From Geosiphon pyriformis uo1 (Eukaryota > Fungi > Glomeromycota): a stretch of 64,000 nt of DNA. The stretch covers positions 471,090 through 535,089 of the forward strand of contig JAAOMT010000299.1 in assembly GCA_016748015.1 (NCBI GenBank). The letters run 5' to 3'. The translations under genes and the position numbers were made by a program. The stretch's first letter is position 1. Every line of letters starts with the position of its first letter. This document shows positions 1 through 47,802 of this stretch, piece after piece. Under the pieces are notes generated by a model. The model searched no databases. It saw only the letters and a program-made list of their open reading frames with translations, and was not told the DNA's origin.

Positions 1-3000
1 ACAACAGAATCAATCCAAATAACCAGTTGGTTCCCCAAAATTCGGGCCAGCAAAGACCCAATCACTATTACACTCAACCCAGTTATCTTACAATACCAGA
101 GGAATCGGATTTTCAACAAACTGCACTTTTTGAAGGTGAAATTGCAGCCCCAAGATCAAACTTTTCCAACCACACCATTCCCCCAGCTCAAATTGCCCAA
201 AATGCTAATCTGTCAGATATATTTCCATTTGAATTTGAGGCAAATGAATCACCATTTCTGCTTAGTAATGCAGCAGTCAATAAACAGAAAGCAATTACTG
301 CCATGTACACAGAAGCTACAGTGGAAGGAAAACCCATTCACTTAATCTTAGATAGTGGATTAGCTGGAAGTATCATTACTTACCAGCTGATGCAACAACT
401 CAAATGAAACATAGACAGACCAGCTCAAACAGTTATTGTCACAGCTGATGGTATGAAGAAGACTCCAGTAGGAGAAATTGATGATTTCTCTTTTTCAATT
501 GATGGAATCACCATTCCAGTTAATGTTCTTGTTATGGATGCACCCCAATACCAAGCTCTAGTCAGAAATGATTGGCTTCTCAAGGCCAATGCAAACCTGA
601 ACTGGGAAACTCAAGAACTTAAAATCTTATACAAAGGACAATATACTATAGTACCTGCAACCTGTGATACCTTTAACAAACGATCAGAAAAAGCTCCAGT
701 ATTTGAATTTGAAGAGGAGAAAGAAATGCCACTTACTGAAACCTACATGGCTCTTGGATCAACATCCAATTGGGCTGAAGAAACTGAACAAAAGATTTTC
801 GAAGAATCAAGGGGATGGAAAAAAGTTAGATATTCTACACCAGAACCACAGAAACAACCATTCTATATTCCACTCAAATGCAAAGATTGCAACAAAAAAC
901 TTTTATTAATGGGAGCATGTATTTCTCCAGAAGAGGAATATGAAACTCGTACCTGTTACTTTTGCAAAGCATGCCATAGAGAACAATTTGGATCTCCAAA
1001 AAGAAGTAGAAAATGGGACAACACATCTTGCCTTACATGTGGAGAAATACTACCAGAAGAATGCAATTGGATTGATGTAGCAATGAGAAGAGGAGTATGT
1101 GATCAAACCTGTCAATATGCTCTATCAATTTCGGAAAAAGTCAGAAGAGGGACACCATTTGATGCAGCATACAACAGTGCTTTCAATAAACTTTATCACT
1201 ACCCTCATGATGCTGAAATGATTTTTGACCTAGCAATGGCATTAATCAATGGAGCCACTCAAAAAGATGTCTGCCAAATGAAAGAAGCTGAATATATTGA
1301 GTACACCATAAAATTAGCTGGATTTGATTATGAAGATGAAGTAGAAACCTACCACCAAATTGCAAGCCACACATATCCGACCAAAGAAGCTCAAATTCAA
1401 TGATTAGAGCAAATAAACATTCAATTGTGTGAAGAATATGTTATGCTTTGTGATGACCAATGGTGTTTAGAATGTTATGCTCTTAGAATTCCTCTGCCAG
1501 ATGAGAATAATGAAAATGAAATCGAATTTGGAGTATCTGAACAAGTAGAAGAACTACCAACCACTCCCATTTATCTTCTTGAAAAGCAACCACCTTTACA
1601 ACTTAAATATTTTGACAACCATGGCCAAGGAATCAGACCAGAAAAAGCACACGAAATTGATGCTGGATATGACTTGAGATACCCAGGAAAAGATACTTTG
1701 ATTCTCCAACCAAAGTCTTTGACAAAAATCAATCTAAAAATTGCTCTTGAAATTCCACCAGGAGCAATGGTTCAAATTGTCTCCAGATCATTATTGGTAA
1801 GCAAAGGAATTAATATTAGAGGAGGAGTTATAGATGCAGGATACACTGGAGACATTACCATCATGTTACAGAATGAAACAGACAAACCATTCAAAATTGA
1901 ACATGCTGAAAAAATTGCTCAAGCAATTTACTTACTCTTAATCAACATTTCGGGTTTACAATCAGTAAACAACAGAGAACAATTGAGAAAAAATGAAAGA
2001 GGAACTCAAGGTTTTGGTTCAACTGGACGATTTACAGTTCCAGTAAACATAGTTCTTAATACACAAAATGAATCTCACCAGATTCTTCAACTTCCTCAGC
2101 CAATTACCATTTCACCTTTTAGAAAACATTACGAAATTTACACTTGCTCAAAACCCACCACTACACAACAAATCTTTGAATCCAATGAACAAATCTGTTT
2201 GAAGCATGAAATATCAATTCCAAACGTTTATATTCCCAAAGGAATGAAAAAATTTTGAGTTACATTCTACAACCCCAATAATTACCCTATTGTTTTATTA
2301 AACAAATTAGAAATTGGAATCATACACAGCAATATCTTTCAAGATGAAAACTCTCAAATTGTCTCTAATTTCATCGAAATTATAAAGCACACTCTACTCC
2401 TAAATCCAAATATTATTCCCACTACTGAAAACTACCACTTGTTGAAAGAAAAACTCTCTCGAATCAATATGGGTTCCTTAGAACCTCAACAACAAAGACA
2501 ATTGAAACAATTGATAGCTGAATTTGCAGATATATTTGCAAAAGACAATAATAACTTGGGAAAAACAGACATTGTTCAACATCAGATCCATACAGGAGAT
2601 GCTCTACCAAAACATCAACAAGCTTATCGAGTGCCACCTGCCAGCCACCAATTTATCAGAGAAGAGATCCAAAGAATGCTCAATAATGGATTGATTCAAC
2701 CATCAAGAAGTTCTTGGGCCTCACCAGTAGTTTTGGTTAAAAAGAAAAACGGAAAAATTAGATTCTGTGTTGATTATAGACAACTGAATAGTGTTACAAT
2801 CAGAGATGCCTACCCTCTTCCAAGAATTGATGACATGCTAGATGCTCTGGGAAAAGCCAAGTTTTTTTCAACTTTAGACTTGGAAAGTGGATACTGACAA
2901 GTCGAAATAGATCCAAAAGATAGACCCAAAACAGCATTCACCACTCAAGGAGGAAATTATGAGTTTAATGTTATGCCTTTTGGACTCTGCAATGCACCAG

Positions 3001-3875
3001 CAACATTTCAGCGACTTATGAATGTTGTCTATGAAGGGCTCTTGTGGCAATCAGTAGTTGTTTATCTTGATGATACTAATATATACTCACCAAGCTTTGA
3101 AGCCCATCTCATTCACCTGCGAGAAGTTTTTCAATGATTACGGAAAGCAGGATTAAAGTTAAATATTGAGAAATGTCACTTTGGAAAAACAAGTTTGATC
3201 TTTCTTGGACACATAGTTAGTAAAGATGGAATCAAACCAAATCCAGGAACAATCAATGCTGTCAAAAACTTTCAAACCTCCAGAAATACTACAGAACTAA
3301 GAGGATTTGTGAAATTAGTCTCTTACTATCGAAAATTCATAAAAGGATTCTCAGAAATTGCCAAACCACTCAATTATCTTACCAACAAAAACGTACCATA
3401 CAAATGGACTGAAGAACAACAAAAAGCTTTTGAAATTCTTAAAACAAAATTGACAACAGCCCCAGTTCTTGCTTATCCAGACTTCAACAAACAATTCCAA
3501 TTAGCCACTGATGCTTTACACATAGCATTTGGTGCCATCTTATCACAATTGGATGAAAATGGCCAAGAACAAGTTATTGCTTATGCCAGCAGAACATTCA
3601 AGCCAACAGAACTCAAATATGGCTCAACTGAATTAGAAGCTGTTGCAGTTATTTGGGCTCTTAAACATTTTCAACAATATCTGAAAAATGGAAAAAAATT
3701 TGACATAATAACGAACAACATTGGCCTCAAATGGCTCAATAAAAAGAAAACTGAACAAAGTGCCAAACAGTCTCGATGGAATAACTTCCTAGCAGACTAC
3801 AGATATATTGTACACCACAAACCAGGAAAACTACATACCAATGTTGATAGCCTCTCAAGAATGAGACAAGATTAG
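1..3875 (+). pseudogene. Element A ORF1: end of Gag, aspartic protease, Cys-rich domain, dUTPase, RT, RNase H; several premature stops
   Basis: ORF pieces 27, 453, 1425, 2439 and 3195 are all in one frame, separated by single stops (e.g. TGA where R or W is expected). Motifs: [32 protein letters not shown]...GAILSQ, ending at DSLSRMRQD*. Confidence 0.93.
1602..2027 (+). other. Trimeric-type dUTPase domain within element A ORF1
   Basis: All five dUTPase motifs are present: DAGYDL, SRS, GGVIDAGYTGDI, KIAQAI, RGTQGFGSTG. Confidence 0.95.
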
Positions 3876-3932
3876 TACCAACAACAATCCCACCACAACT
3901 TACCAACTTACCAACAAAATAACCAAACAAGA

Positions 3933-5100
3933 ATGGATCTCAGAAACTACAGCAATCTTAAAAATTATTTGGAGACCTTTATTATGCCAGAAAACTGGTC
4001 TCCAAGTGAAAAACACCACTTACAACACCAATCAAAACAATATTTCATACACCAGAACAAAATTTATTATAAAAATCACAGAAAACCAAACCAGCCACTC
4101 AGATTAATACAAGAGAATGAAAAAGAAACAATTTTATACAATATGCACACAGATCCGTCTTTAGCACACTTGGGAAAAGAGGGAACAATTCAAAGAACCC
4201 TTGAACATTATTTTTGGCCTCACATGCAAAAAGACATTTGACAATATGTAGAATCTTGTAATAACTGCCAAAGAAGAGGAGAAACTCGCCCCACAGAACC
4301 TTTAAATCCAATCAAAGTTGGACAACCTTTTGACAGAGTTGGAATTGATTTAGTCAGACCATTACTTATCACAACCCAAGGAAATTGTTATATTGCAGTT
4401 GCAGTGGATTATCTTACCAAATGGCCTGAAGCTAGAGCCATCCAAAGAGCAGATGCAAAATCAGTAGCAAAATTCATCTATGAAGACATTATCTGTAAAC
4501 ATGGATGCCCAATTGAACTCTTATCTGATCAAGGAACACATTTTGTGAACAACTTGATACAAGAAATTTGTGAATGGTTCAATGTCAAAAGACCNNNNNN
4601 NNNNNNNNNNNNNNNNNNNNNNNNNNNNNNNNNNNNNNNNNNNNNNNNNNNNNNNNNNNNNNNNNNNNNNNNNNNNNNNNNNNNNNNNNNNNNNNNNNNN
4701 NNNNNNNNNNNNNNNNNNNNNNNNNNNNNNNNNNNNNNNNNNNNNNNNNNNNNNNNNNNNNNNNNNNNNNNNNNNNNNNNNNNNNNNNNNNNNNNNNNNN
4801 NNNNNNNNNNNNNNNNNNNNNNNNNNNNNNNNNNNNNNNNNNNNNNNNNNNNNNNNNNNNNNNNNNNNNNNNNNNNNNNNNNNNNNNNNNNNNNNNNNNN
4901 NNNNNNNNNNNNNNNNNNNNNNNNNNNNNNNNNNNNNNNNNNNNNNNNNNNNNNNNNNNNNNNNNNNNNNNNNNNNNNNNNNNNNNNNNNNNNNNNNNNN
5001 NNNNNNNNNNNNNNNNNNNNNNNNNNNNNNNNNNNNNNNNNNNNNNNNNNNNNNNNNNNNNNNNNNNNNNNNNNNNNNNNNNNNNNNNNNGAACACTTAA
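3933..5100 (+). pseudogene. Element A integrase, a separate ORF interrupted by an assembly gap
   Basis: ATG at 3933; HHCC zinc motif (MHTD..AH / CNNC); GIDLV, DYLTKWPEA and SDQG. The C-terminus ...NT* after the gap matches the integrase end of element E. Confidence 0.88.
4595..5090. other. Assembly gap (N run)
   Basis: 496 consecutive N. Confidence 1.
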
Positions 5101-5243
5101 ATTTTACAATAATTCTCTACTAAAAACACAAAGACAAAAATAGTAAATAATTACAAAACACCCAAACCCAAAAACAAATAAAAACCTCATATCCAAAAAA
5201 TAATTTTCTTTATTCTCTCTTTTCATAATTAGTCAATTTTATC

Positions 5244-5951
5244 ATGATTATTCCCCGAAATATTCAACAAATATCCCAAAAATTAATGTTAGCCTTGAAA
5301 ACACTCCCTGACTTATCTATAACAATTAATGGAAGTCAAATTAAATACATTCAGAAAGAAACCACAGCCCCAGTAGCAAATCATTTACAGAACTATCACC
5401 CCTATAGAAGAGAAACAAAAAGTCACTCTGAGAATAGATTACTAAGACTTTTGAAACAGGCACTAAAAGAAAATCTGCTAATTGCCCCTATTGACATTCC
5501 ACCAAATACTACAATACAACAAAAACTACTACTACTTCTTAATGAACAGAACAATGAACACACCCCTATCTATAGATACTTTCAAATTGGAAAAACACTT
5601 TATGAACGAAAACTGGAACTTGAAGCAACAAATCTTACTCTTGAAGTTATACAAAAACAAATCTACAATGAATTCAAAACAGCAGCTGAACCAACAAACA
5701 CTTGCTACAAACTTAGAGCAGCTTTTAGACTCTATGATTTGTTTAATACTTGTGAAAATGTTCTACAAAATCCAATACTGCAATCAATAAAAGTCCAATA
5801 CATTGGCAAACTCACAGAACTGAAATTTCAACAATTTTCAGACCAAATTACTTCAATCATTTTAGATCACTATCTCAATATTACAGATAGTGCTTGGACT
5901 TTGATGGAGCTTAGTCTTAAGGAGGAGATTATGTTACCAGTAGAATTTTAG
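5244..5951 (+). CDS. Element A ORF3, 235-aa protein of unknown function; intact frame overlapping the PPT and LTR start
   Basis: Open ATG-to-TAG frame; homologous ORFs sit at the same position in C, D, E and F. Confidence 0.8.
   Translation: MIIPRNIQQISQKLMLALKTLPDLSITINGSQIKYIQKETTAPVANHLQNYHPYRRETKSHSENRLLRLLKQALKENLLIAPIDIPPNTTIQQKLLLLLNEQNNEHTPIYRYFQIGKTLYERKLELEATNLTLEVIQKQIYNEFKTAAEPTNTCYKLRAAFRLYDLFNTCENVLQNPILQSIKVQYIGKLTELKFQQFSDQITSIILDHYLNITDSAWTLMELSLKEEIMLPVEF
5919..5931 (+). promoter_or_regulatory. Polypurine tract of element A
   Basis: AAGGAGGAGATTA immediately before the LTR TG. Confidence 0.85.
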
Positions 5952-6901
5952 CTATTAATTAACATGAAATTACCCTTATAATTCTTATAATTCATTAGTA
6001 TATTAATATCATTTCAAATTATCATTTATTATTTAATCAATTATCACATATCACGATTCAATTAAAATAATCTAATTAGTATAACAGAAAGTAAGATGAT
6101 CAAATTACACAATACTCTGAACTTTGTAACATTCAAAAATTCGCCGAAATTTACAGAAATTCGCCGAAATTATGAATAGTTCACCCAAATTAATCAATAG
6201 TTCAGCAAAATAACTTGTAGTTCATCAAAATGTATCTTTAGTTTGCCGGAATTTGGGCAAAGAAAAAAAGTGCAAGTTCATAAACTAGTACTACAACAAG
6301 TTGTATAAAAGAAGAGCTTTTCTCTTCTGGAAAATGTATCTTACTTTAGATTTATCACTTAGAACCATTCCTACACACACAAAAGAAATAAATATCAAAT
6401 AATTTGAAAAACCAAATTCTTTAATTATTACACTTGGAAAATCCCCAAAACCCAACTAACATTTTGAAATTGATTAGCTACCAATTTTAGTAAACTGTTA
6501 GTGACTTCAGGCTTGGATAAAAAACGTTTCTCTTGACAAAATTCTATTTCTTTTACATTTTTTTTATTTTTTTTTATTTTTCTTATTACAATCATTAGGG
6601 TAGCCTACAGACAAGATTCCTGTAAAAGAGTTGACTTTCACAGCAAAGTAACTACACATTTTTAGTGAGCTTCCAGATGAACAATTCCTGGGAAAGAGTT
6701 GACGTTTACTACAACATAACTACATAAAGTAACTGGCAAGAAATTGGCCATTCCACTTATAAGCCCAGCAGTTCAAATTATAAGAGATAATTTGAAAATA
6801 AATTCAGTTATTGGAGGTTCAACTACTTTCTGAAAATGTGAATTCACAGCAAATCAACATTACCAACATTTAAGAAAAGAGACCAAAAACCTCCAGTAAC
6901 A
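5932..6901 (+). repeat. 3' LTR of element A (970 bp)
   Basis: TGTTACCAG...CCAGTAACA termini; homologous to the LTRs of B and E in reverse complement. Confidence 0.95.
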
Positions 6902-9900
6902 GCACTAATTTTTCCAGGGTCCGGTTTGATTCCATCTTTACTAACGATATGACCAAGAAAAGCCAAGCTTGTTTTTCCAAAGTAGCATTTTTCGATGTTG
7001 AGTTTTAGTTCTGCTTTTTGTAATCATTGAAAAACTTCTTACAGGTGTTTTAAGTGTAATTCGAATGATGAAGAATAAACATCAGTATCGTTAAAATAAA
7101 CGACTACTGACTTCCAAAGAAGTTTTTGATACACAACATCCATTAATCTCTGAAATGTTGCTGGTGTATTGCATAATCCAAAAGGCATTACATTGAACTC
7201 ATAATTTCCACCTTGGGTGGTAAATGCTGTTTTGGGGTGATCTTTGGGATCCATAACAACTTGCCAGTAACCACTTTCTAAATCTAGCATTGAAAAGTAT
7301 TTGGATTTTCCAAGAGCATCTAACATGTCATCAATTCGGGAAAGGGAGTAGGCATCTCCAATTGTAACACTGTTGAGTTGTTAATAATCAACACAAAATC
7401 ATATCTTTCCATTTTTTTTTAATTAGCACTACAGGTGAAGCCCAAGAATTCATGGAGGGTTGGATAAGCCTGTTGTTAAGCATTCATTGTACTTCTTCTC
7501 GGATGAATTGGTGGCTTTCTGGAACAACTCGGTAGGCTTGTTGTCACCTTGGTTTGGCGTCTCCTGTGTAGATTTGATGTTGAACCAAATTGGTTCTTCT
7601 TAAGTCATTGTTGTTTTCGGCAAAGATATCAGCAAATTCTGCAATTAGTTTTTTGAGCTGGTTTTGTTGTTGTGGTTCAAGTTGTCTCATGTTGATTTAA
7701 GATAGTTTTTCTATGACAACATGGTAGTTTTCAAAGCTGAGATTTGGGTTGATTTTTGATAGTGAATGTCCAATAATTTCAGAAAAATCGGGGACTGTTT
7801 GGGGTAATTCTTGTTGAAATATGTTACTGTGAATAACTCTAATTTCTAAATTATTTAATAAAACTATGAGGTAATTATTGGGGTTGTAAAAAGTAACTCG
7901 GACTTTCTTTGTTCTTTCTGGAACATAAATGTTTGGGATCAAAATATTATGTTCTAAGCAGACTTGTTCATTGGACTCAAAAATTTGTTGTGTGGTTGTT
8001 GGCTTTGAGCAGGTGTAGATTTCCGGATGTTCTTCAAAGGGTGAGATGGTAATTGGTTGTGGAAGTCTGAGAATCTGGTGGGATTTGTTCTGTGTTTTAA
8101 GGGCTATATTAACTGGAACTGTGAATCATCCAGTTGAACCAAAATCTTGGGTTTCTCTATCACTTTTTCCTAATTGTTCTCTTTGATTAACTAGTTGCAA
8201 ACCCGAAATGTTGATTAGGGGTAGGTAAATAGCTTGGGCAATTTTTTCATGTTTGATCTTGAATGGTTTGTTAGTTTCATTTTGAAGCATTATTGTTATG
8301 TCTCCAGTATATCCAGCATCGATTATTCTTCCTCTGACATTGATTCCTTTGCTTGCCAGAGAGGACTGGGAGGCGATTTGAACCATTGCTTCTAGTGGAA
8401 TTTTGAGTGCAATTTTGAGGTTGATTTTTGTGAGAGATTTGGGTTTGAGAACAAGAGTATCTTTGTTTGGATATTTTAGGTCATATCCAGCATCAATTTC
8501 GTGTGCTTTTTCGGGTTTTATTCCTTGTCCATTGTTGTTGAAATATTTGAGTTGTAAGGCAGGCTGATTTTCGATAAGATAGATGGGTGTTGTTTCAATT
8601 TCTTCCATTGCTTTAGGTTCTTCAAATTCAATTTCGTTCTCATCACTTTTGCTGGGCAAGGAGATGCTAAGAGTGTAGCATTCAGGATACCACTGTTCAT
8701 TACAAGGCATAATGCATTCTTCACATAGCCTAATGTTCATTTGCTCTAATCATTGAATTTGAGCTTCTTGGGTTGGGTAGGTGTAACTTGCAATTTGGTG
8801 GTAGACTTCTACTTCATCTTCGTAATCAAATCCAGCTAATTCCATGGTGTATTCAATGTATTTTGCTTCCTTTATTTGACGGACATCTTCTTTGGTAGCT
8901 CTATTAATTAATGCCATTGCTAGGTCGAAAATCATCTCAGCATCATGGGGGTAGTGATAAAGTTTGTTGAGAGCACTGTTGTATGCTGCATTAAAGGGTG
9001 TTCTTCTTTTTACTTTTTCTGAAATTGATAAAGCATATTGGCAGGTCTGATTGCAGACTTCTCTTCTCATTGCTACATCAATCCAATTGCATTCTTCTGG
9101 TAGCATATCTCCACAAGTCAAATAAGGGGTGTTATCCCATTTTTCACTTCTTTTTATTAGATGGCCCCATCATTCTCTGTGGCAAGCCTTGCAGTAATAA
9201 CAAGTATGATTTTCATATTCTTCTTCAGGTGAAATACAGGCTCTCATTGATAATAGTTTCTTGTGGCAGTCCTTACATTTAAGAGGAATATAGGGGCATT
9301 GTTTCTTTGGTTCTGGCTTTGAGTATAGGATATTTCATCCAGAGGTTTCAGGTTCAGAGTGTGGTGTAAAATGTTCTTGTTTAGTTTCATCGGCCCAATT
9401 GGACATTGATCCAAGAGCCATGAATGTTTCAATTATTGGTTTTTCTTCTTCTGATTCAAATTCAAAAGCCAGGGCTTTTTCAGAGCATTTGTTAAATGTA
9501 CCACAAGTGGCAGGTACTTGGGCATGTTGTCCTTGGTAAGAGATTTATAGTTCTTGGGTTTCTCAGTCTAATTTTGCATTGGCTTTCTGGAGCCAATCAT
9601 TTCCGACAAGAGCTTAGTATTGGGGAGCATCCATGACCAAAACTTTGACTGGAATGGTGATTCCGTCAATTGTGAATGGAAAATTGTCAATCTCTCCTAC
9701 TGGAGTCTTTTTCATGCCATTGGCAGTAACAATGATTGTCTGAGCTGGTCGGTCAACATTTTTTTTAGCTGCTGCATCAATTGATATGTGATGATACTTC
9801 CAGCAGATCTACTGTCTAGGATCAAGCGAATTGACTTTTCTTTTACTTCAGCTTTTGTGTACATTGTAGTGATGGCTTTTTGTTCATTAGCCACTGCATT

Positions 9901-11934
9901 GTTAAGCAAGAATGGTGATTCATTTGCTTCAAATTCGAATGGAAATATATCTGAAAGGTTGGCATTTTCAGCAATTCTGACTGGTGGGATTGTGGTAGAA
10001 GTATAGAAAGAGTTTTGTTGTTGTGCTGCAGCTCTACCTTCCGAGAGTGCAGTATAGTGAAAATTCTGTTCTTCAGGTATTGTTAAATAACTAGGTTGAG
10101 TATAATAGTGATTAGATCTTGGTTGAGTGGAATTTTGGGGGACCAATTGGTTGTTCAAACTAATTCTATTGTTGTTTACTTGGTATCGGTTTTGTGGTGT
10201 AAATTGGTTTTGTGTAATCAGTCTTCGAGCAGGTACTTGATAATGTTGTGTAGGTGGTTGTTGGTATTGCTGTTGGATTGGCTGTGATAATAGTTACTTG
10301 GATATTAGGGTCTTGGTGGATAGTAAGCTGGTGGTGGTGGTTGATAATAAGATTGCTGTGGTAGAGGGTAATGTTGATTACTCCTATTTTGTTGGTCTCA
10401 TTGTAGCTTTCTGCAATCTCTTTTTCAGTGGCCAAAGATTCTACAATAATGGCAATTCTGAGGCTGGTTATTAGGAAGTAGTGCAAAGTTATTTTGATTT
10501 CGTTTTTGGAGTGGTTGATATCTTTGGGGTTGCTGTTGTTGTTGATTGGTGAAATAGTTTTCAACCTTCTTTGTGAGTTGATCAATTTTTTTCTTAGCTG
10601 CTGAGCTGGTTTCTCTAATTGCCAAATTTACAAGTTTTGTGCAATTGGCCTCTTCTATGGCCATTTTGTATCTTTTCGCATGCTGTATGGCAGAGTTTAA
10701 ATCTTCTGGGGCATGTGGGCAAACCTTTTTAATTAGTTTATCTTTGAGACCAGCAATAAATTGATCCAAAATTTGAGCATCGGAGTAATAATCATTTGTT
10801 TTAAGTTGGCAAATTCATCTGAGAAGTTTGTTGAATCTTCTAATATAAGTCATGACAGATTCGGAGGATTCTTGTTTGATATTATGAAAACAATTTTGAA
10901 GTGTAATTGAGGTGTTGTTATTAGTGAATTGTTTTAGGAAGGCAGTTTTGAAAGCTGTCCAGTCATTAAAAGGGGTGGTCAAGTTTTCAAACCATTTACC
11001 TGCTGTTCCTTTGAGGAAATAGGGAATTGTTCTTAACATTCTGGCAGTATTCTATCCATTTGCATCTCCAGCTTTAGTAACTTGGTCGAGCCATTCTTGG
11101 GGACTGGCCTCAATGTCTTTTCTATTGAATTCAGGGATTTTTGCGATGTATACTGTTATTTCGTCTTCCTCGTTTTCACTGTCTATTGATTCTCCTTCAG
11201 ATATTTCAGAGTCGTTTTCTTTGTTCACTGCTGTCTCAGAGTGTTCACTTTGATTTTCAGCTAGAAAGTCAAGGAGATTGGAACTAGTTTGAAGGGGTTC
11301 TTGTTGTCTGGTGGCACTTCTGGATAATGTAAAATCTTCTAGTCTTGTAAATCAATTTAAAAGTGAATTAGATGTTTGTGCTTGTGCAAGTAAAGCTGGA
11401 AAAGATGTGATAGTAAGTGGAAGTTTTGAACTGGTCTCTTGTTCAGGTGTTTGTAAATGTTTGGCAGTTGTTTTTGGTAATATTGGAGTATTTGGGGTGG
11501 TTTTTGAGTATTGCTTCAATTTTTGTTTGCCTTTGTTGCTTGTTTCTGTTTTTGATTCAAAATCAATGAAGTATTGAGACTGTACTGGATATGTTTCTTC
11601 ACAGTACTTGATAATGTTAAAGTTAAGTTCTTGAAAGTAAGTGGCAAGTGTTTCACTGTTAAAGTTTTCAGTTTTCAACTGTGAATAGTGTACTAAATTA
11701 TTGTAAAGATTGCTTCTGACTTCTGAGATATTGTAATTTCCAAAAAGATAATTGTTGATGCAGTTTTCAATGTATTGGTATACTGATTTCTTGACAACTT
11801 CAATTCCGTCTGGAATGTTGAATTTTTGCTTGCAGTGGGTGTAAATTGACTGGTAATATTCTAAAGTTGTTGCATCTAGTGTGGTTGCCACTTTGAAGTT
11901 GTTTTTGCTGTGTTGTTTCTGTGGGAGAGCACCA
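6902..11934 (-). pseudogene. Element B Gag-PR-Cys-rich-dUTPase-RT (partial), decayed
   Basis: Minus-strand ORF fragments from 11352..11891 to 7039..7326 are near-identical to the element E proteins. Confidence 0.92.
11917..11934 (-). promoter_or_regulatory. Primer binding site of B (TGGTGCTCTCCCACAGAA)
   Basis: TGG 2 nt after the 5' LTR CA; complementary to a tRNA 3' end (...GGAGAGCA-CCA). Confidence 0.85.
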
Positions 11935-11936
11935 AA

Positions 11937-12919
11937 TGTTACCAGAGGTTTTTGGTCTCTTTTTTTTAATGTTGTTGATGGCTGTTTGCTGTAAATTCAC
12001 GTTTTTTGGATGTGGTTAAACCTCCAATAACTGAATTTATTTTCAAATTATCTCCTATAATTTGAACTGCTGGGCTTATAAGTGGAATGACCAATTTCTT
12101 GCCAGTTACTTTATGTAGTTACATTGTAGTAAATGTCAACTCTTTCCCAGGAATTGCTTGTCTGGAAGCTCACTAAAAATGTGTAGTTACTTTGCTGTGA
12201 AAGTCAACTCTTCTACAAGAATCTCGTCTGTAGGCTACCCTAATGATTATAATAAGAAAAATAAAAGAAAAGTAAAAAAAATGTAAAAGAAATTGAATTC
12301 TGTCAAGGGAAGCGTTTTCTATCGAGGCCTGAAGTCACTAACAGATTACTGAAATTGGTAGCTAATCAATTTCAAAATGTTAGTTGTGTTGAGAGAATTT
12401 CAAGTGTAATAATTAAGGAATTTGGTTTGTTTTCAAATTATTTGATTTTTATTTTTTTTTGTGTGTATAGAAGATAGTTCTAAGTGATAAATCTAAAGTA
12501 AGATACATTTCCTTGAAGAGAGAAGCTCTTCTTTTATACAACTTGTCATAACACTATTCTATGAACTTGAACTTTGCTATTTTCTATAATTTTGCTGAAC
12601 TAAAGATACATTTCGGCAAACTACAAGTTATTTCTGCAAACTATTAGATATTTTGGTGAATTATCAATTATTTTGGTGAATTTCTTACAAATTTCGGCGA
12701 ACTTTTTGAATGTTACATAGTTCGGGTATTGCATGATTGATCATCACAATTAAGTTACATTTGTGTTATGTACAAATTGAGTTATTAATTAAATGATAAT
12801 TTCGGATATTTTATTAATATAATAAGTGATAATTTGAAACAATAATATATGCTAATTAATGATAAGATTTATAAGGATAATTTCATGTTAAACAATGTTT
12901 CTAATTTCATCTGGTAACA
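11937..12919 (-). repeat. 5' LTR of element B (983 bp)
   Basis: TGTTACCAG...CTGGTAACA termini; highly similar to the E LTRs. Confidence 0.95.
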
Positions 12920-14728
12920 GCAGAAAAAGAAATTGTTGACCAAGGAGAAATTATCTCAATGGGTCAAACAATTTCTATTCCACCATATGGCCAATACATA
13001 ATAGGAATAAAGTGAAAGGTAAAAGAACAGAATCAGATTTTTGAAGCAGAACCAACCCTTTGTGAATTAGGAGAAATTGGATTTATCAATCTACACATAC
13101 CAGCCAAGAGCCATAACTATATCAAAATTTCTATCTACAACAACACTGGAAATATTGTAGAAATACCAGCCGGAACCACTATATGATACTTAAGCACTGA
13201 AATAGAGAATCAACTACCAAGCACCATTCTAAACTTTCCACAGTTTTGTGAATATGTCAATATTACATCACAAATGATATATGGACAAAGTGAAGGTTAT
13301 TTGCTCCAACCAGAACAATTGGAACAAATGAACATAGGAAACTTGGATCTATTCCAAAGTATGCAACTTAAGATGTTGCTCAACAATTTCAATGACATCT
13401 TTGCCAGCAAAAATGAGTTTGGCCGAACTGACATCATCCAGCATCAGATCAAGACTAGAGATGCAATGCCAATTAAACAAAGAGCATACAGAGTACCACC
13501 AGTTAGCCATGAGATTATTCGGTAAGAGATAAACCGAATGCTTGACAACGGGCTAATTCAGCCATCAATGGGCCCATGGTCATCACCAATGGTACTCATT
13601 TGTAAAAAGAATAAAAAGATCCACTTTTGTGTGGATTATAGAAAACTCAATGGAATAACTTGTGGAGATAGCTACTCCACTCCATGGATCCAAGAATTAT
13701 TCGATGCTTTTGGTAGAAACAAATAGTTTTCAACATTAGACCTAGACAGTGATTACTGGCAAGTAGCCATGGATCTAGCCAACAAAGAAAAGACAACATT
13801 CACCATCAGAGAAGGGAATTTTGAATTTGAAGTAATGCCATTTGGCTTAACCAATACACCAGCCACTTTCCAATGGCTAATGGAAATTGTTTATACTGGC
13901 TTATTGTGGAAATCAGTAGTTGTATACTTGGACGACACCAATGTATTCTCAAAAACATTTGATGATCATCTTTATCATCTTCAACAAGTGTTCGAAAAAC
14001 TAAGAAGAGCAGGACTAAAGTTAAATGCAACAAAGTGTTTTTTTGGTAAAACAGAACTAAAATTCTTGGAACACATAGTCAGCAAAAATGGCATCAAAAC
14101 GGATCCAGAGAAAATAGAGATAGTAAAGAACTTTCCAGTGCTGACAAATATGACAGAACTGAAATCATTCTTGGGATTCGCCAGCTACTATTGATGTTTT
14201 ATCAAGAACTTTTCCAAGATAGCGCAGCTACTCAACCAACTGCAAACCAAAAATACAAAATATGAATGGACAGAAAGTCAACAAAAAGCTTTTGATATTC
14301 TGAGAAGAAAGTTCATTTAAACTCCAGTACTGATCTATTCAGATTACAGCAAACTATTTATCATTACCACCAATGCATCTGGCCAAGCATTGAGAGCAGT
14401 ACTATCTCAGAGAGAACTAGACGGCAGGGAACATCTAATAGCATATGCTAGCAGAAGTTTAACACCAGCCGAAAAGAACTATAGAACACCGGAACAAGAA
14501 CACTTAGCGATATACTGAGCAGTCATGAAATGGAAAGAATACTTGAGCCAGAAGTTTGAGATGTATACAGATCACAAAGGATTAACATCACTCCAAAAAC
14601 AAGAATTTGGAGATGGAAGACAATCAAGATAGAAAATGGCACTTGCACTATATAATTATACAATACATTATAAAAAGGGAAAAGACAACAAAAATGCTGA
14701 CAGTTTATCACAAATGAGACAAATTTAA
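12920..14728 (+). pseudogene. Element C pol (linker, RT, RNase H), ending at ...MRQI*
   Basis: FCVDYRKLN, FEVMPFGL, YLDD, AYASRSL and NADSLS motifs, with stops. Confidence 0.92.
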
Positions 14729-14789
14729 GGACATTTCAACCCAAAAATATAACAAAACCAAAACAATACTCACAAAAATATAACAAAAG

Positions 14790-16172
14790 ATGAACACACA
14801 AAAATATTAACAACTTTAACATTATATAAATACTCAACAGTTCAAGGAGAATTTATCTCAAACGGAATGAAAGAGTATCAAACAACAATCAAAATATTTT
14901 ATCACTCACCAAAATATACTTTATCGGAAAAATAGAAGGGATCCAGATCAACCAACCAGAGTAATTACAGAGCCAGAAAAAGAGACCATATTATTTAACA
15001 TGCACTCAAATCTAACAGCAGAACATTTTCACAAAGAAGCAACCATAGAAAGAACCAGAAAAAGATACTATTGGCCATCAATATATCCAGACATCATTCA
15101 ATATATTCAAAATTGTGATGCTTGTCAAAGAAGAGGAAGAACAAGACCCAGCAAACCATTGAGACCAATCAAAATGGAACAATCATTTGATCATATTGGA
15201 ATTGATTTAGTTGGACCATTAACAATTACCAGCAGAGGAAACAGATACATAGCAGTAGCTATGGACTATCTCACTAAATGGCCAGAGGTAAAAGCAATTC
15301 AAAGAGCAGATGCAAAATCTGTTGCTGAATTCATTTATCAGGATTTGATTTGTTGACATGGATGTCCAAAAGAATTATTATCAGACCAAGGAACTCATTT
15401 TGTAAACAAAACATTAACAGAATTGAGCCAAAGATTCGGAATTAAGAGACCACTATTATCACCATACCATCCACAAACCAACAGATTAGTCGAAAGATTC
15501 AACAGAACATTGTATGAAGCAATAGCTAAGCTCAACCAAGAAAATCAGAACGATTAGAACATGTTGATACCATCAGTACTATTTGTTTATTGAACAATGA
15601 AGCAAGACACTACACAAGCAACACCATTTGAATTAGTATATGATAGAACAGCAACATTACCAGTGGAGATAGAGGTCAACACATATCTAACTGAACCAAT
15701 AACAGAAGAGAATTTCCAAGAAACATTGTTAAGAAGAACATATGACTTAATGGAAACAGTGGAAAACAAACGAAAAAAAGCAGCTGATAACATACAAAAG
15801 TTACAAAAGAAACAGAAAGAAAGACATGATAATCAACTACCAGACAAACCAGTTGAATTCAAGATTGAAGACAAAGTACTCTTATATTGTACCAAAGCAG
15901 AAAAACAATGGAGTAGAAAATTTGACTCCAAATAGGACAGACCATTTCACATAGAAGAAATTCTAGGAAATGGAGCTTACAAATTAAAACTGGACAACAA
16001 AATCTTAACCAAAGCAGCACATGGAGATCAACTGAAACCATACCACAACACCATACCACCATTTACCAGTAATATTCTACAATTAGAAGTACAGAGAATA
16101 CTAGTCCAACCAGATCAGATTCCACGAAATCTGTAACCAATCATTATTATTGACAACAACACGTCAAATTAA
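14790..16172 (+). pseudogene. Element C integrase (separate ORF)
   Basis: ATG at 14790; MHSN..EH / CDAC, GIDLVGP, SDQG, ERFN and a GPY/F-like C-terminal module. Confidence 0.9.
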
Positions 16173-16226
16173 TCCATCAAAAGAATATATAAAGACAAGG
16201 TAGACGCGACAGGAAATATCAGAAAA

Positions 16227-16850
16227 ATGGAAATTACAGACAACATTTACTTATTAGCACAACAATTCTTTCAATTAATCCAATACCAGGAAATGAAGAT
16301 TACAATCAATCAACAAACCATTCAATATCAAAATACCAGAAAAACATTACAACCCAAAACACAGAAGAAAACTGAAAATACTGTGGACAAAATTATTGCA
16401 AAAGTAAAATTAGCAATAAAAGAGTCGACAAAAAAGTCACTATATCAAGAGTTGACTAAAGAAACTTGGAATTGGTGGATACAACAATTTTCATAAAACT
16501 ATTGTTATTTTTACTTGGGACAACATGTAAATATCCAGAATCTATATACGGATAAAACAAAGCAATTATTCGACAAAAAAATACTACAAAAATTAGAACA
16601 TTTTGTGAGAAAGAACAACTTATTCACACAGGCCCAAGCTATATACCAAATACACACAGCATTTCAGGATAGACCAGAAATATTACTCAACAAAGCAATG
16701 GATATGGTTACCAGTAATCAATTGGAAAAGATTACCAATGCTCAATTTGAAAAATTACAGACCCAAATAACACAAATAATTCTCGAAAACAAAATCCAGG
16801 AAATACTTCAAGAAGAAGAATTAAACAAGTTGGATTTTGATAAAGCTTAA
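16227..16850 (+). pseudogene. Element C ORF3, unknown protein, one premature stop
   Basis: ORFs 16227..16496 and 16515..16850 are in the same frame; motifs YCYFYLG, AIYQIHTAF and ITNAQFEKL are shared with the other ORF3s. Confidence 0.8.
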
Positions 16851-16869
16851 TATTAAAAGGAGAGAATAA

Positions 16870-25054: not shown

Positions 25055-25056
25055 TT

Positions 25057-25074
25057 TGGTAAACCCTACGAGGA
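25057..25074 (+). promoter_or_regulatory. PBS of D (TGGTAAACCCTACGAGGA, decayed)
   Basis: TGG 2 nt after the 5' LTR. Confidence 0.75.
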
Positions 25075-30853: not shown

Positions 30854-30884
30854 AAACCATCAAACAACAACCAATTCATAAACA

Positions 30885-32264: not shown

Positions 32265-32349
32265 TTAATCTTAAATTACACCAAGAAACAGTTAACAAAG
32301 CATAAAAATGCATGCAAAAGAGCCCAAAAAGCAGTCAGAAATTAAAACA

Positions 32350-33021
32350 ATAACATATATTCCAGAAAACATTAGTAAGTTAACCCAACAACTATGTCAA
32401 AGCTTATAACAATCAAATTCAGATTTGGAAATTACAATTAATAGTTCCAAGATATCATATAAAAGAAAAATGATACCAAATTCTACGATAAATAAGAAAC
32501 CTAGTTTTGTACTATATACTACTATTGCCAAAAACAGTAACAGCTTTATTGACAAAACCATTAAAAATTTAGGAATAGCATTGGATAATACATTGATAAC
32601 AGAAGAAATGAACATAGTAGAATTAACACCAAGTATATTTGAACAGCTGAAGAAAAAATTCCCCATTAATTATTGTTATTACCAATTGGGAAAACAATTA
32701 AACATACAAACATTATACTCAAAAGATTCAGTCAAAGTATTCAGCAAAACAACAATACAACAATTGAAAAGTTTTATTGAAAAAACCAACAATATACTTC
32801 ATATAAAAGCTGTTTACAGAATTTTTAAGGCTTTCAAAAACTGTTACAAAGTACTATTGGATCCAACTATGAATCTTATAATAATTAATAGCATTGGACA
32901 ATTAACCAATTTACAATTTCAAAATTTACAACAACAAATTAATAATATAATATTAGATTATTACAGTAATATAGAAATCAATAAAGAAATTAACTTCAAT
33001 TTTGACAGAGCTCAATCTTGA
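32350..33021 (+). pseudogene. Element D ORF3; start ATG decayed to ATA, one stop
   Basis: IPENI...LEITIN, YCYYQLG, AVYRIFKAF and IGQLTNLQFQNL motifs. Confidence 0.8.
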
Positions 33022-33034
33022 AAGGAGAGGATAA

Positions 33035-35197: not shown

Positions 35198-35823
35198 TTA
35201 AGCTTCATCAAAATCTTCATTTTGAATTAGGTTCATGACTTTTTTTTTTAATATTATTTGTTCAACTCTGCTTCTTATATTTTTGATTTGTGAGTTGTTT
35301 ATTTTTTCTCACTAGTTAATGGTTATTGTCTCCATATTAGAGTGTAACAATATTTCTGAGTAGTTTTAAAATATTATGTATAGTTAATAAATTGTTCTAA
35401 TATGTAGTGTCAGATTTGTTTTTTTTCCAATAATGTCTTTAATATTTTATATTATTTCTTGATTGAATATTTTTTTGGCTTTATCAAGATATAACTTCTG
35501 AATATCCAACTTTTGTTCTAACTGATAATAGCAGTATAGTATTAGAAGTTGTTTTATCTACTGTTTTCAATTTTCCTTTGAAAGTTTTTTTGTTGAAACC
35601 ATAATGGGTATTTTTCTAAGAATGTTTTTCACTTTTTCTACTATTTTATCTGACCAATTTCTTGGTTGGTTCTGTGGCCACTGGTATGGTGTGTTTTTTT
35701 TTGTTTGGTGTTTCAATAGCAGATTGTTTGGTGGTTGATAGTAATTTTCATGTCCAATTGTTGTTGATTTAAGATCTGAAATAATTGCTGAGCTAAGATG
35801 TGAATATAATCTGGTATTTCTAT
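35198..35823 (-). pseudogene. Element F ORF3
   Basis: Translates (M)EIPDYIHILAQQLFQILNQQQLDMKITIN, homologous to C ORF3 MEITDNIYLLAQQFFQLIQYQEMKITIN. Confidence 0.78.
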
Positions 35824-43345: not shown

Positions 43346-43347
43346 AA

Positions 43348-46133: not shown

Positions 46134-47114
46134 TGTTACCAGAGGTTTTTGGTCTCTTTTCTTAAATGTTGTCGATGCTTGTTTGCTGTAAATTCACGTT
46201 TTCTGGATGTGGTTAAACCTCCAATAACTGAATTTATCTTCAAATTATCTCCTATAATTTGAACTGCTGGGCTTATAAGTGGAATGGCCAATTTCTTGCC
46301 AGTTACTTTATGTAGTTACGTTGTAGTAAATATCAATTCTTTCCCAGAAATTGCTCGTCTGGAAGCTCACTAAAATGTATAGTTACTTTGCTGTAAAAGT
46401 CAACTCTTCTACAGGAATCTTGTCTGTAGGCTACCCTAATGATTGTAATAAAAAAAGAAAAGAAAAATAAAAAAAATGTAAAAAAAATAGAATTTTTGTT
46501 AAGAGAAACGTTTTCTATTCAGGCCTGAAGTCATTAACAGTTTACTGAATTTGGTAGCTAATCAATTTCGAAATGTTAGTTGGGTTTTTGGGGGTTTTTC
46601 CAAGTACAATAATTAAAAAATTTGGTTTTTCAAATTATTTGATATTTATTTCTTTTTGTGTGTATAGGAATGGTTTTAAGAGATAAATCTAAAGTAAGAT
46701 ACATTTTCTCAAAGAAAGAAGCTCTTCTTTTATACAACTTGTTATAACACTATTCTATGAACTTGAACTTTGCTATTTTCTATAATTTTGCTGAACTAAA
46801 GATACATTTTGGTGAACTACAAGTTATTTCTGTGAACTATTAGATATTTTGGTAAACTATTAATTATTTCGGCAAATTTCTACAAATTTCGGCAAACTTT
46901 TAAATATTACATAGTTCGGGATAATGCATAATTGATCATCGCAATTAGGTTACATTTGTGTTGTGTACAATTTGGGTTATTAATTAAATGATAATTTCGG
47001 ACATTTTTGCTAATGTAATAAGTGATAATTTGAAACGATAATATATGCTAATTAATGATAGAAATTATAAGATAATTTCATGCTAAATAATATTTCTAAT
47101 TTCGTCTGGTAACA
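46134..47114 (-). repeat. 3' LTR of E
   Basis: TGTTAC...GTAACA termini; adjacent PPT (reverse complement GAGGAGGAGATTA). Confidence 0.96.
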
Positions 47115-47802
47115 TAATCTCCTCCTCAAGACTGAGCTCCGTTGAAGTCCAAGTACTGTTTGTTATTTCCAGATAATAATCCAAAATTATTGAAAAAATT
47201 TGGTCTGAAAATTGTTGAAATTTCAGTTCTGTGAGCTTTCCAATGTATTGAATCTTCAAAGGTTGAAAAATTGGGTTTTGTAGTATGTTTTCACAGGTGT
47301 GGAATAGGTTATAAAGTCTAAAAGCAGCTTTGAGCCTGTAGTGACTGTTTGTTGATCCAGCTGTTGTCTTGAATTTGTTGTGGAGTTGTTTCTGAATAGC
47401 TTTTTTTGTGAGGTTTGCTGTTGTAAGTTTCAGTTTCTGTTTGTAAAGTGTTTTTTCAATGTGAAAATATCTATAGATTGGAGGATATTCAGTGTTTTTT
47501 TCATTGAGACACAGTTGAAGTCTTTGTTGAATTGTAGTATTTGGTAGAATACTAATCAGAGTGAGCATTAGGTTTTCTCTTAAAGCAAGCTTTAAAAGTT
47601 CTGGCAGGTGAATTCCAGTATAACTTCTTGTGTTCTTCTTATACGGGTGATATTTTCGTGAATTTGGGGCTAAATTTGTAACTACTTCTGTTTGGGTATA
47701 ATTAATGTGGTTTCCAGTAACAGTAATGGATAATTCAGGTATTGTTTTTAAAGCTAACATTAGTTTTTGGGATAATTGTTGAATGTTTTAAGGAATAGTC
47801 AT
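47083..47802 (-). pseudogene. Element E ORF3; one early stop at codon 5, otherwise open
   Basis: MTIP*NIQQLSQKLMLALK... matches A ORF3 MIIPRNIQQISQKLMLALK... Confidence 0.82.

What the first reader, a model, noticed from the sequence alone, without database searches (positions are those of the whole stretch)
5244..5951. Conserved non-env ORF3 between integrase and 3' LTR in all families
Seen: a protein of about 205-240 aa sits at the env position in A (fully intact), E, C, D and F. The DNA is divergent, but three blocks are shared: an N-terminal P/T-x-N/Y-I...Q-Q/K-L...I-T-I-N...I-x-Y block, Y[RC]Y[FY]x[IL]G, and A-x-x-[RQ]-[LI]-[YFH]-x-x-F...[IL]-x-x-[LI]-T-x-x-x-F-[QE]. There is no signal peptide, TM helix or furin site, so it is not Env, and it looks soluble and helical. 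In family 1 it reads across the PPT into the LTR. Inference: protein-level conservation across families implies selection. Possible roles are an IN-packaging or targeting partner, a transactivator, or an anti-silencing factor.
Basis: partly seen in the sequence, partly recalled or inferred. Interest (0 to 1): 0.78.

Follow-up and report, generated by a model that had tools for sequence, protein, structure and literature searches.

The report
Selected orphan third gene in fungal retrotransposons
A group of gypsy-type jumping genes in the fungus Geosiphon carries a third gene after integrase whose protein sequence has been preserved by selection; the protein resembles nothing known and likely helps the element, possibly inside the nucleus.

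Summary
ORF3 (5244-5951, 235 aa, intact) lies between integrase and the 3' LTR of a dUTPase-carrying Ty3/gypsy element. Homologous copies sit at the same place in the other four elements of the window that keep this interval (E, C, D, F; tblastn E 1e-94 to 1e-13). It is a real, selected gene. A versus E gives dN/dS 0.20-0.35 by four methods, against 0.72 and 1.11 in shifted frames and 0.14 for pol. Of 74 common variants among genomic copies, 46 fall on third codon positions, and no common indel lies in the ORF. It is not Env: no hydrophobic segment. AlphaFold2 predicts a compact helical core (pLDDT 88). Pfam, PDB sequence, Foldseek and VIA-align gave no significant match. Named relatives are all Geosiphon pyriformis hypothetical proteins. 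Three come from unnamed metagenome records, one showing the same IN-ORF3-PPT-LTR layout. The last ~12 codons are the polypurine tract and LTR start read as protein. Function is inferred only: a non-enzymatic helper, possibly nuclear, because a PY-plus-basic motif sits in a disordered linker. No RNA data were available. This is a new member of the known class of extra ORFs in LTR retrotransposons.

The parts
5244..5951 (+). ORF3 of element A, intact, 235 aa plus stop. N-terminal helix + beta-hairpin (aa 5-37), disordered basic linker with a PY motif (aa 41-60), helical core (aa 80-212), disordered tail (aa 213-235).
5124..5243 (+). A-rich spacer between the integrase stop and the ORF3 ATG. It has stops in all three frames (2/2/3), so ORF3 cannot be joined to pol by read-through or a single frameshift.
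5919..5928 (+). Polypurine tract AAGGAGGAGA, lying inside the last codons of ORF3 (read as K-E-E).
5932..6901 (+). 3' LTR of element A (TGTTACC...GTAACA). ORF3 runs 20 nt into it.
47083..47802 (-). ORF3 of element E, 64% aa identity to A, one in-frame stop at codon 5. It overlaps the 3' LTR (46134-47114).
32359..33021 (+). ORF3 of element C, 31% identity to A, one in-frame stop, ATG lost. TGA stop directly before the PPT (33022-33031); LTR starts at 33036.
16227..16850 (+). ORF3 of element D, ATG kept, one in-frame stop.
35201..35817 (-). ORF3 remnant of element F, one frameshift and at least six stops.
408..4595 (+). pol of element A in one frame with in-frame stops: PR, a Cys-rich region, dUTPase, RT, RNase H, integrase N-part. 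Used as the selection yardstick.

Best explanation
ORF3 is a real third gene of a clade of dUTPase-carrying Ty3/gypsy LTR retrotransposons, kept under purifying selection about as strong as that on pol, and it likely encodes a non-enzymatic helper protein that is predicted to act in the nucleus. Shown: it is a separate frame with its own ATG, cut off from pol by stops in all three frames. It is homologous in five element families of the window and in one unrelated metagenome element. Its substitutions are mostly synonymous. Its product has no membrane segment. Predicted: a small N-terminal helix/hairpin module, a disordered basic linker, a compact 130-residue all-helical core with no detectable relative of known structure, and a disordered tail that is just the PPT and LTR start read as protein. 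Inferred (my odds about 0.3): it is translated from a subgenomic (spliced or internally initiated) RNA. The conserved [RHK]-x(2-5)-P-Y motif with its flanking basic residues acts as a transportin/Kap104-type nuclear import signal. The helical core is an adaptor for a nuclear step of the element's cycle, either import or integration of the cDNA complex or LTR transcription. The first part (a genuine, selected accessory gene) I hold at about 0.9.
For: Homology at the same position in 5 of 5 elements that keep the interval, and in metagenome locus L001, which shows RT-RNaseH-IN, a 316-nt spacer, an intact 230-aa ORF3, then PPT and TGTTACC. Selection, A vs E over 234 codons: omega 0.20 (bootstrap 0.13-0.30). 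Differences by codon position are 54/42/92. Shifted-frame controls give 0.72 and 1.11. LWL85, YN00 and ML give 0.31, 0.35 and 0.23. pol of the same pair gives 0.14, with domains at 0.11-0.22. Both copies have also decayed neutrally since insertion, so these values overstate omega in the active lineages. Within the genome, contigs of DNA run X1 laid at 80% or more show 74 listed common variants, 46 on third positions. 42 are synonymous, against 32% expected from the observed mutation spectrum (p 1e-5). No common indel lies inside the ORF, while indels are listed at 5195 and 6380. 81 of 179 related proteins in hand are near full-length stand-alone proteins. Across families, ORF3 diverges like Gag rather than like the enzymes. 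For E vs C: ORF3 30%, Gag CA/NC 34%, RT 60%, IN 54-55%. L001 pol is 52-58% identical to A, E, C and D (44% to F), while its ORF3 is 26-32% identical to A, E and C. Spacers have stops in all frames in A, E and L001. No TM segment. Core domain model: pLDDT 88.4, pTM 0.83. Conserved columns are mostly hydrophobic, plus K138, N152, Y164, T191 and Y210, with no catalytic-looking set. PY motif: there is a single PY at the homologous linker position in every family representative except P0150, an N-terminally divergent gene model. It is present in 89 of 141 aligned proteins; the rest are mostly LY or SY, as C-to-T decay of a Pro codon gives; 6 of 6 distant members have it. The full [RHK]x(2-5)PY pattern is in 70 of 133 proteins, against 220 of 2660 shuffled regions. 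The linker is predicted disordered (pLDDT below 50 for aa 41-60) and is the fastest-evolving segment (35% identity A-E), as expected for a short linear motif. The consensus R/H/K-X2-5-PY is taken from the abstract of PMC2408616 (seen in the listing).
Against: There is no transcript, splice junction or protein evidence for ORF3. No homology or fold match gives a handle on function. The PY motif is short. About 8% of shuffled regions carry it. In A-type copies the upstream basic residue is only a histidine at the edge of the allowed spacing. The linker's net charge is only +2. No NLS predictor or localisation data were available. Four of the five window copies are damaged, although their pol genes are damaged too. 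The dN/dS rests on one pair of copies plus a truncated variant table (40 of 196 and 40 of 47 rows shown). The deeper pairs are saturated at synonymous sites.
Confidence: 0.6

Rival explanations
1. ORF3 is a particle-associated structural or chaperone protein that works with Gag in the cytoplasm (assembly, RNA packaging or reverse-transcription support) rather than in the nucleus.
For: Its long-range divergence matches Gag's (30% vs 34% for E-C) and not that of the enzymes (51-60%). It has no enzyme-like conserved residues. It is a soluble helical protein.
Against: No similarity to Gag by profile comparison (probability 0.1). No nucleic-acid-binding motif or zinc knuckle. pI ranges from 5.4 to 9.3 between families. 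The conserved PY/basic linker is not explained.
Confidence: 0.2
2. ORF3 is a counter-defence factor that blunts host silencing (RNAi or DNA methylation) of the element, like the accessory antagonists of complex retroviruses.
For: It sits at the position of retroviral 3' accessory genes and overlaps the PPT and LTR as lentiviral nef does (recalled, not tested). It diverges fast between families while being constrained within them, a pattern also seen in host-interacting proteins. The copies show a C-to-T / G-to-A rich mutation spectrum, so the host does attack these elements.
Against: No similarity to any known suppressor. No sign of positive selection in the one pair tested (omega is below 0.4 in the four segments that could be scored; helix 61-79 was saturated). 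No functional data.
Confidence: 0.12
3. ORF3 is an integrase partner or targeting factor.
For: It is adjacent to IN. The IN here ends in an SH3-like domain (Pfam SH3_Tf2-1 at E 1.1e-05, 25.9 bits, below the 30-bit cut-off) and no chromodomain was reported for it, so a separate targeting module is conceivable.
Against: Nothing specific points to IN. Adjacency alone is weak evidence.
Confidence: 0.08
4. ORF3 is a degenerate remnant of an envelope gene.
For: It occupies the env position.
Against: No hydrophobic segment in any family (maximum KD19 1.29). No Env Pfam family. A compact helical core is predicted with high confidence. Purifying selection is as strong as on pol, which a decaying relic would not show.
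Confidence: 0.03
5. The frame is kept open by nucleotide-level constraints (PPT-proximal cis elements, an internal promoter, RNA structure) or by chance, and makes no functional protein.
For: The last ~12 codons are indeed a conserved nucleotide element, GAGCTYARTCTT-PPT-TGTTAC, shared by A, C and L001. Synonymous divergence is lower there (pS 0.34 vs 0.55-0.63 in the N-module, linker and core).
Against: Over the rest of the ORF the changes pile up on third codon positions, and omega is 0.14-0.18 in the N-module and core. Shifted frames of the same alignment give 0.7-1.1. An open frame by chance has P of about 3e-8.
Confidence: 0.04

Closest known systems
Non-envelope ORF3s / 'additional ORFs' of LTR retrotransposons (e.g. 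bdelloid rotifer Vesta/Juno/TelKA ORF3s, PMC5408684, abstract and passages read; 'add. ORF' of unknown function in a figure legend on fungal and spikemoss Gypsy elements, PMC2864245, passages read)
   Same: A separate sense-strand ORF between pol and the 3' LTR. It is family-specific and sits in elements that also carry a dUTPase domain. The rotifer paper states that such ORF3s are typically expressed from spliced messages.
   Different: The rotifer ORF3s have recognisable domains (GDSL esterase, DEDDy exonuclease, TM/coiled-coil, paramyxovirus-like fusion protein). This one has none and no fold match. Its host is a glomeromycotan fungus. Whether it relates to the fungal 'add. ORF' could not be checked, because no sequence was available.
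3' accessory genes of complex retroviruses that overlap the PPT and U3 (lentiviral nef, spumavirus tas/bet); recalled from general knowledge, not tested here
   Same: The last gene before or into the 3' LTR. The coding sequence runs across the polypurine tract into the LTR (families A and E, and L001). It is non-structural and needs its own message.
   Different: No sequence or structural similarity. One weak Pfam VPR hit (E 0.041, 14.4 bits against a cut-off of 25.5, 1 of 18 members) is chance level. The element has no env. In family C the ORF stops before the PPT.
Env of errantiviruses and other env-bearing Ty3/gypsy elements
   Same: Position downstream of integrase.
   Different: No signal peptide, TM anchor or fusion-protein family. 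About 230 aa rather than 450 or more.
Caulimovirus P6/TAV (gene downstream of pol with its own promoter); recalled, not tested
   Same: A largely helical, non-enzymatic protein encoded directly after the RT/RNase H gene of a reverse-transcribing element.
   Different: No detectable homology, a much smaller protein, and an LTR element rather than a pararetrovirus.

Membership tests
LTR-retrotransposon additional ORF (ORF3/aORF class) | Separate sense ORF between the pol stop and the 3' LTR, not fusable to pol | tested here: met
   Stops in all three frames of the spacer in A, E and L001. ORF3 is out of frame with pol in E and L001. The 'longer' search found only 7 chimeric Geosiphon gene models, and none was a pol-ORF3 fusion from another taxon.
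LTR-retrotransposon additional ORF (ORF3/aORF class) | Conserved between copies and families of the element lineage | tested here: met
   tblastn E 1e-94 to 1e-13 between five families. L001 has the same layout. omega is 0.20-0.35.
LTR-retrotransposon additional ORF (ORF3/aORF class) | Expressed from its own (spliced or internal) message | not testable with these tools
   No run on record as RNA was listed.
Retroviral/errantiviral Env | N-terminal signal peptide and C-terminal transmembrane anchor | tested here: not met
   The maximum 19-residue Kyte-Doolittle mean is 0.79-1.29 in the 7 whole proteins scored and the first 215 residues of an eighth.
Retroviral/errantiviral Env | Match to an Env/fusion-protein family | tested here: not met
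   No Pfam family at E<=0.01 for any of the four ORF3 copies scanned. None is among the families at E<=1 for 18 members.
Ty3/gypsy (Metaviridae) host element | gag, then PR-RT-RNaseH-IN order in pol, flanked by LTRs with TG..CA ends, with a PPT before the 3' LTR | tested here: met
   Pfam finds Retrotrans_gag/Ty3_capsid/zf-CCHC, an Asp_protease_2 match below its cut-off (17.5-18.2 bits vs 24.3), dUTPase, RVT_1, RT_RNaseH, Integrase_H2C2 and rve (just below its cut-off) in that order. LTR pairs are 94% (E), 89% (C) and 82% (F) identical. TGTTAC...GTAACA ends and the PPT are seen.
PY-NLS (transportin/Kap104 import signal) | C-terminal R/H/K-X2-5-P-Y motif | tested here: inconclusive
   The pattern is in 70 of 133 proteins covering the region, against 8% of shuffles. 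PY itself is in 89 of 141, and in 6 of 6 distant members. A-type copies fit only marginally. The consensus is from the PMC2408616 abstract.
PY-NLS (transportin/Kap104 import signal) | Lies in a disordered, overall basic stretch | tested here: inconclusive
   AF2 pLDDT is below 50 for aa 41-60. Basic residues flank PY in all families, but the linker's net charge in A is only +2.
PY-NLS (transportin/Kap104 import signal) | Binds the karyopherin and drives nuclear import | not testable with these tools
   Needs a localisation or binding experiment.
Closterovirus coat protein (PF01785), a lead from the ESM Atlas | Sequence or fold match to the family | tested here: inconclusive
   The Atlas score is 0.91, but only 136-142 of 256 features are shared, below the 170 typical of true members. 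The family is not among the Pfam matches at E<=1, and no such chain appears in the VIA-align lists.

The most novel reading that the evidence does not exclude
These fungal Ty3/gypsy elements are 'complex' retrotransposons. ORF3 would be a nef/tas-like regulatory gene with a previously unseen helical fold. It would be made from a subgenomic RNA and imported into the nucleus through a PY-type signal. There it would control the element's own transcription or integration, or disarm host silencing. Such a gene class is otherwise known only from complex retroviruses.
Probability: 0.15. Interest if true: 0.7.

Novelty: new member of a known kind. Interest (0 to 1): 0.45.

Why it matters
Extra ORFs in LTR retrotransposons are common, but few are shown to be under selection and almost none have a known role. 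Here a fungal example has clear purifying selection. A confidently predicted compact domain has no relative among solved structures. Copy number is high in one genome: 179 related proteins are in hand, 81 of them near full length. There are traces of the family in unrelated soil metagenome records. LTR elements expanded strikingly in Geosiphonaceae (PMC11952901, passage read), so a lineage-specific helper gene could be part of why. It also matters practically: hundreds of 'hypothetical protein' gene models in the Geosiphon annotation are this transposon gene.

Tried and rejected
RNA evidence: the look-up of sequencing runs listed no RNA holder, so expression and splicing could not be examined. 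Run X2 (kind only guessed) gave 4 short contigs on the ORF3/LTR stretch, one flanked by adapter sequence. I draw nothing from it.

Co-fold of the L001 integrase C-terminal piece with its ORF3: no verdict (score 0.04). This is not evidence either way.

Sequence families:
- Pfam at E<=0.01 on four ORF3 copies: none.
- Pfam at E<=1 on 18 members: only chance-level rows. The best was DUF1016_N at E 0.0039 in 4 of 18. VPR scored 0.041 in 1 of 18.
- PDB sequence profile: best hit FtsQ at E 0.12.

Fold searches:
- Whole model (pLDDT 68): Foldseek PDB best E 0.45, BFVD best E 0.12, VIA-align wide best Z 5.8 over 59 residues.
- Core model (pLDDT 88): Foldseek PDB best E 1.4, VIA-align wide best Z 5.1. 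These are below the level the tool calls meaningful for helical proteins. A missing match does not prove a new fold.

Other searches:
- ESM Atlas: unnamed clusters at 0.92-0.93 and Closter_coat at 0.91 with low shared-feature counts. Treated as chance.
- Gag-derived origin: hhalign probability 0.1.
- Viral contig scans with P0147 and P0001: no relative.
- The metagenome scan with alignment A2 was rejected by the tool as too divergent. The single-protein scan found only the query's own contig.
- A conserved splice acceptor or promoter motif upstream of ORF3: the spacers align only between A and E. A polypyrimidine-AG just before the ATG in A is not kept in E. No claim is made.
- YN00 on pol failed numerically.
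- Earlier findings of this scan: none.

Literature searches for a described glomeromycotan or fungal ORF3 found no description of this protein. Only listings and abstracts were seen, plus passages of PMC5408684, PMC2864245 and PMC11952901. The supplements of PMC2864245, which list the fungal element structures, were not opened.

Full report
**What the window is.** Pfam scans of all 61 stop-to-stop frames of 110 aa or more, together with self-comparison, show a nest of Ty3/gypsy LTR retrotransposons. Their pol reads PR, a Cys-rich stretch, dUTPase, RT, RNase H, then integrase.
- Element A runs from the window start to 6901 (+). It is 5'-truncated by the window, and its integrase core is N-masked at 4596-5090.
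- Element B (6905-12919, -) is a truncated copy of the E family.
- Element D lies at about 12922-17300 (+).
- Element C is 24262-33850 (+), with LTRs 89% alike.
- Element F is 34321-44192 (-), with LTRs 82% alike.
- Element E is 46134-56006 (-), with 981-bp LTRs 94% alike.

ORF3's protein is 94-100% identical to 'hypothetical protein' entries of Geosiphon pyriformis. I take that as the source organism.

**The observation.** ORF3 (5244-5951) is open for 235 codons with an ATG.
- The sequence is AT-rich, and the other five frames of the stretch carry 15-24 stops. None of 20000 shuffles stayed open.
- tblastn finds the same protein at the same place, after integrase and before the 3' LTR, in E, C, D and F. 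A-E is 64% identical (E 1e-94) and A-C 31% (8e-14). The other E-values are C-D 1e-25, D-F 1e-19 and C-F 1e-13.
- These four copies are damaged. E has one stop. C has one stop and a lost ATG. D has one stop. F has a frameshift and at least six stops. Their pol genes carry in-frame stops too.
- B lacks the interval. So the count is 5 of the 5 copies that could show ORF3.

**A separate gene, not a pol tail.** The spacer between the integrase stop and the ORF3 ATG has stops in all three frames in A (2/2/3), E (3/1/4) and the metagenome element L001 (8/7/9). ORF3 is out of frame with pol in E and L001. Searches for longer proteins returned 7 hits, all Geosiphon gene models that run from ORF3 into a neighbouring element; 3 of the 7 carry a gag domain. 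None was a pol-ORF3 fusion.

**Selection.** I threaded codons through a protein alignment of A and E. Nei-Gojobori gives dN 0.21, dS 1.07 and omega 0.20 (bootstrap 0.13-0.30), with differences at codon positions 1/2/3 of 54/42/92.
- Transitions dominate here (120 against 68), which can distort such estimates. I therefore read the same alignment in the two wrong frames as a control, and omega rises to 0.72 and 1.11.
- LWL85, YN00 and ML give 0.31, 0.35 and 0.23.
- pol of the same pair (1361 codons) gives 0.14, with individual domains at 0.11-0.22 and shifted frames at 0.77 and 1.21.
- By segment of ORF3, the N-terminal module is 0.14, the helical core 0.18 and the linker 0.38. The tail shows lower synonymous divergence (pS 0.34, against 0.55-0.63 in the N-module, linker and core; the short helix 61-79 was saturated at 0.85).

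A second line of evidence comes from contigs of a DNA run of the same organism, laid on ORF3 at 80% likeness or more.
- There were 2093 contigs on the first 441 bases and 19190 on the 1.8-kb ORF3-LTR stretch.
- The listed common variants (10% of depth or more) number 74. Of these, 46 are at third positions, and 42 are synonymous where 32% would be expected from the observed mutation spectrum (p 1e-5).
- No common indel lies inside the ORF. In that run, indels are listed at 5195 (spacer) and 6380 (LTR).
- Caveat: the tool showed only 40 of 196 and 40 of 47 rows.

Of 179 related proteins in hand, 81 cover at least 90% of the 235 aa as stand-alone proteins of 250 aa or less.

**Rate relative to the other genes.** Between E and C, ORF3 is 30% identical, Gag CA/NC 34% and dUTPase 28%. 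RT is 60% and IN 54-55%. L001 pol is 52-58% identical to A, E, C and D, and 44% to F; its ORF3 is 26-32% identical to A, E and C, with no hit to D or F. ORF3 therefore evolves like the non-enzymatic Gag and has travelled with the element lineage.

**Distribution.**
- A full HMMER pass over 1.84 billion representative proteins found 37 hits.
- The word-indexed searches found 206 and 256. Every named hit in the 120 best rows of each is from Geosiphon pyriformis.
- I looked up ten of the representative hits. Six are Geosiphon proteins.
- P0147 and P0149 come from unnamed metagenome assemblies. P0154 is a second member of P0149's cluster.
- The other two are repeat-rich chance hits.
- The one metagenome contig I could fetch (L001, 3713 bp) has RT/RNase H and integrase with two in-frame stops. 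A 316-nt spacer follows, then an intact 230-aa ORF3. That ORF3 reads through a PPT (GAGGAGAAGA) into TGTTACC.

**The tail is a cis element.** The most conserved stretch across 30%-identical proteins is 'EL[SN]LEE[EK]IMLP' at the C-terminus. At the DNA level this is GAGCTYARTCTT, the PPT and the LTR start TGTTAC. The same string occurs in A, L001 and C. In C a TGA ends the ORF just before the PPT, so the string there is not coding. The tail is predicted disordered (pLDDT 28-43). Its conservation is nucleotide-level, not evidence of protein function.

**What the protein looks like.**
- No hydrophobic segment was found: the maximum 19-residue hydropathy is 0.79-1.29, and pI ranges from 5.4 to 9.3.
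- The AlphaFold2 whole-protein model has pLDDT 68. It shows helix 5-18, hairpin 24-37, a disordered stretch at 41-60, helix 61-77 and a helical core at 91-211.
- The core folded alone (aa 80-212) reaches pLDDT 88.4 and pTM 0.83.
- Conserved columns are hydrophobic, plus K138, N152, Y164, T191 and Y210. Nothing looks like a catalytic set.
- No search gave a significant match, whether by Pfam, PDB sequence profile, Foldseek on PDB and BFVD, or VIA-align against 48161 chains. The best Z was 5.8 for the whole model and 5.1 for the core. The tool notes that helical models without true relatives typically reach higher Z than this. The core therefore has no recognisable solved relative, but a new fold is not proven.

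**A lead on mechanism.** The linker is the fastest-evolving part (35% identity between A and E) and is predicted disordered.
- Every family representative except P0150, an N-terminally divergent gene model, keeps one P-Y at the homologous spot, with basic residues on both sides. Examples are 'RKYHPYKKNTR' in the E type, 'RQSTPYTRKPK' in P0147 and 'SRPLPYQRKPK' in P0149.
- PY is present in 89 of 141 aligned proteins. The rest are mostly LY or SY, the products of C-to-T decay of a Pro codon. It is present in 6 of 6 distant members.
- The pattern [RHK]-x(2-5)-P-Y is in 70 of 133 proteins, against 8% of shuffled regions.
- This matches the C-terminal consensus of proline-tyrosine nuclear localisation signals, which are read by transportin/Kap104 (abstract of PMC2408616).

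It is a short motif and I could not test it. I use it only to choose among otherwise equal hypotheses.

**Most likely working model.**
- Shown: a separate, selected, soluble, non-Env protein gene that is part of this retrotransposon lineage.
- Predicted: its domain layout.
- Inferred: translation from a subgenomic RNA, because the ORF is isolated from pol by stops; nuclear import through the PY linker; and an adaptor role of the helical core in a nuclear step of the cycle.

Rivals are a Gag-associated particle protein, a counter-silencing factor, an integrase partner, an Env relic and a non-functional frame. I weigh them in the rival list. The last two are disfavoured by the data.

**Comparison with what is known.** Extra ORFs after pol are a known feature of LTR retrotransposons. 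The bdelloid rotifer study (PMC5408684, abstract and passages) describes dUTPase-bearing lineages with diverse ORF3s, but those have recognisable domains. A paper on fungal Gypsy elements lists dUTPase domains, and its figure legend mentions an 'add. ORF' of unknown function (PMC2864245, passages). By position and its PPT/LTR overlap, ORF3 recalls lentiviral nef or spumaviral tas/bet (recalled, not tested). No search of the held literature turned up this protein. I file it as a new member of the class of retrotransposon accessory ORFs, of an undescribed protein family.

Noticed in passing
5932-6901 vs 55026-56006 and 11937-12891: The LTR of element A is 85% identical to the LTRs of the E/B family. 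Yet the coding regions of A and E differ at 57% of synonymous sites (nt identity 73-77%). Non-coding LTRs should not be better conserved than silent sites. This suggests recent LTR exchange or recombination between the two families, with a breakpoint near the PPT.
   Followed up: partly
408-1400 (A); 8753-9169 (B); 52251-52691 (E): Between protease and dUTPase, pol carries a ~330-aa stretch with several CxxC pairs (zinc-finger-like) and no Pfam family. It is conserved between A and E with omega 0.15.
   Followed up: partly
1404-2255, 8129-8749, 38726-39517, 50742-52247: A dUTPase domain (Pfam PF00692, E 1e-15 to 1e-21) sits between PR and RT in the A, B, E and F copies. dUTPase-bearing Gypsy elements were described from basidiomycetes and Tuber (PMC2864245). 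Here the host is a glomeromycotan fungus.
   Followed up: partly
whole pol of A (408-4592) and of L001 (1-2139): pol stays in a single reading frame but is interrupted by in-frame stop codons, with few indels. The variant spectrum of genomic copies is dominated by C>T and G>A (51 and 46 of 179 places). This is a deamination-type (RIP-like or methylation-linked) decay pattern.
   Followed up: no
62565-63937 (+): Three consecutive frames match Pfam MDM10 (mitochondrial distribution and morphology protein 10), positions 33-327 of the profile. This is a host gene split by introns at the edge of the transposon nest.
   Followed up: no
18000-20000 and 56199-61672 (+): Frames with RVT_1 and cellular-type RNase_H (PF00075), but no integrase or LTR pair. 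These are probably non-LTR (LINE-like) retroelements, and they carry no ORF3 homolog.
   Followed up: no
53271-55085 (-): The first ~280 residues of the E-family Gag frame, upstream of the Retrotrans_gag domain, have no Pfam match and do not align at all with the C or F family Gag. This copy has no in-frame ATG at the expected start next to the primer-binding site.
   Followed up: partly
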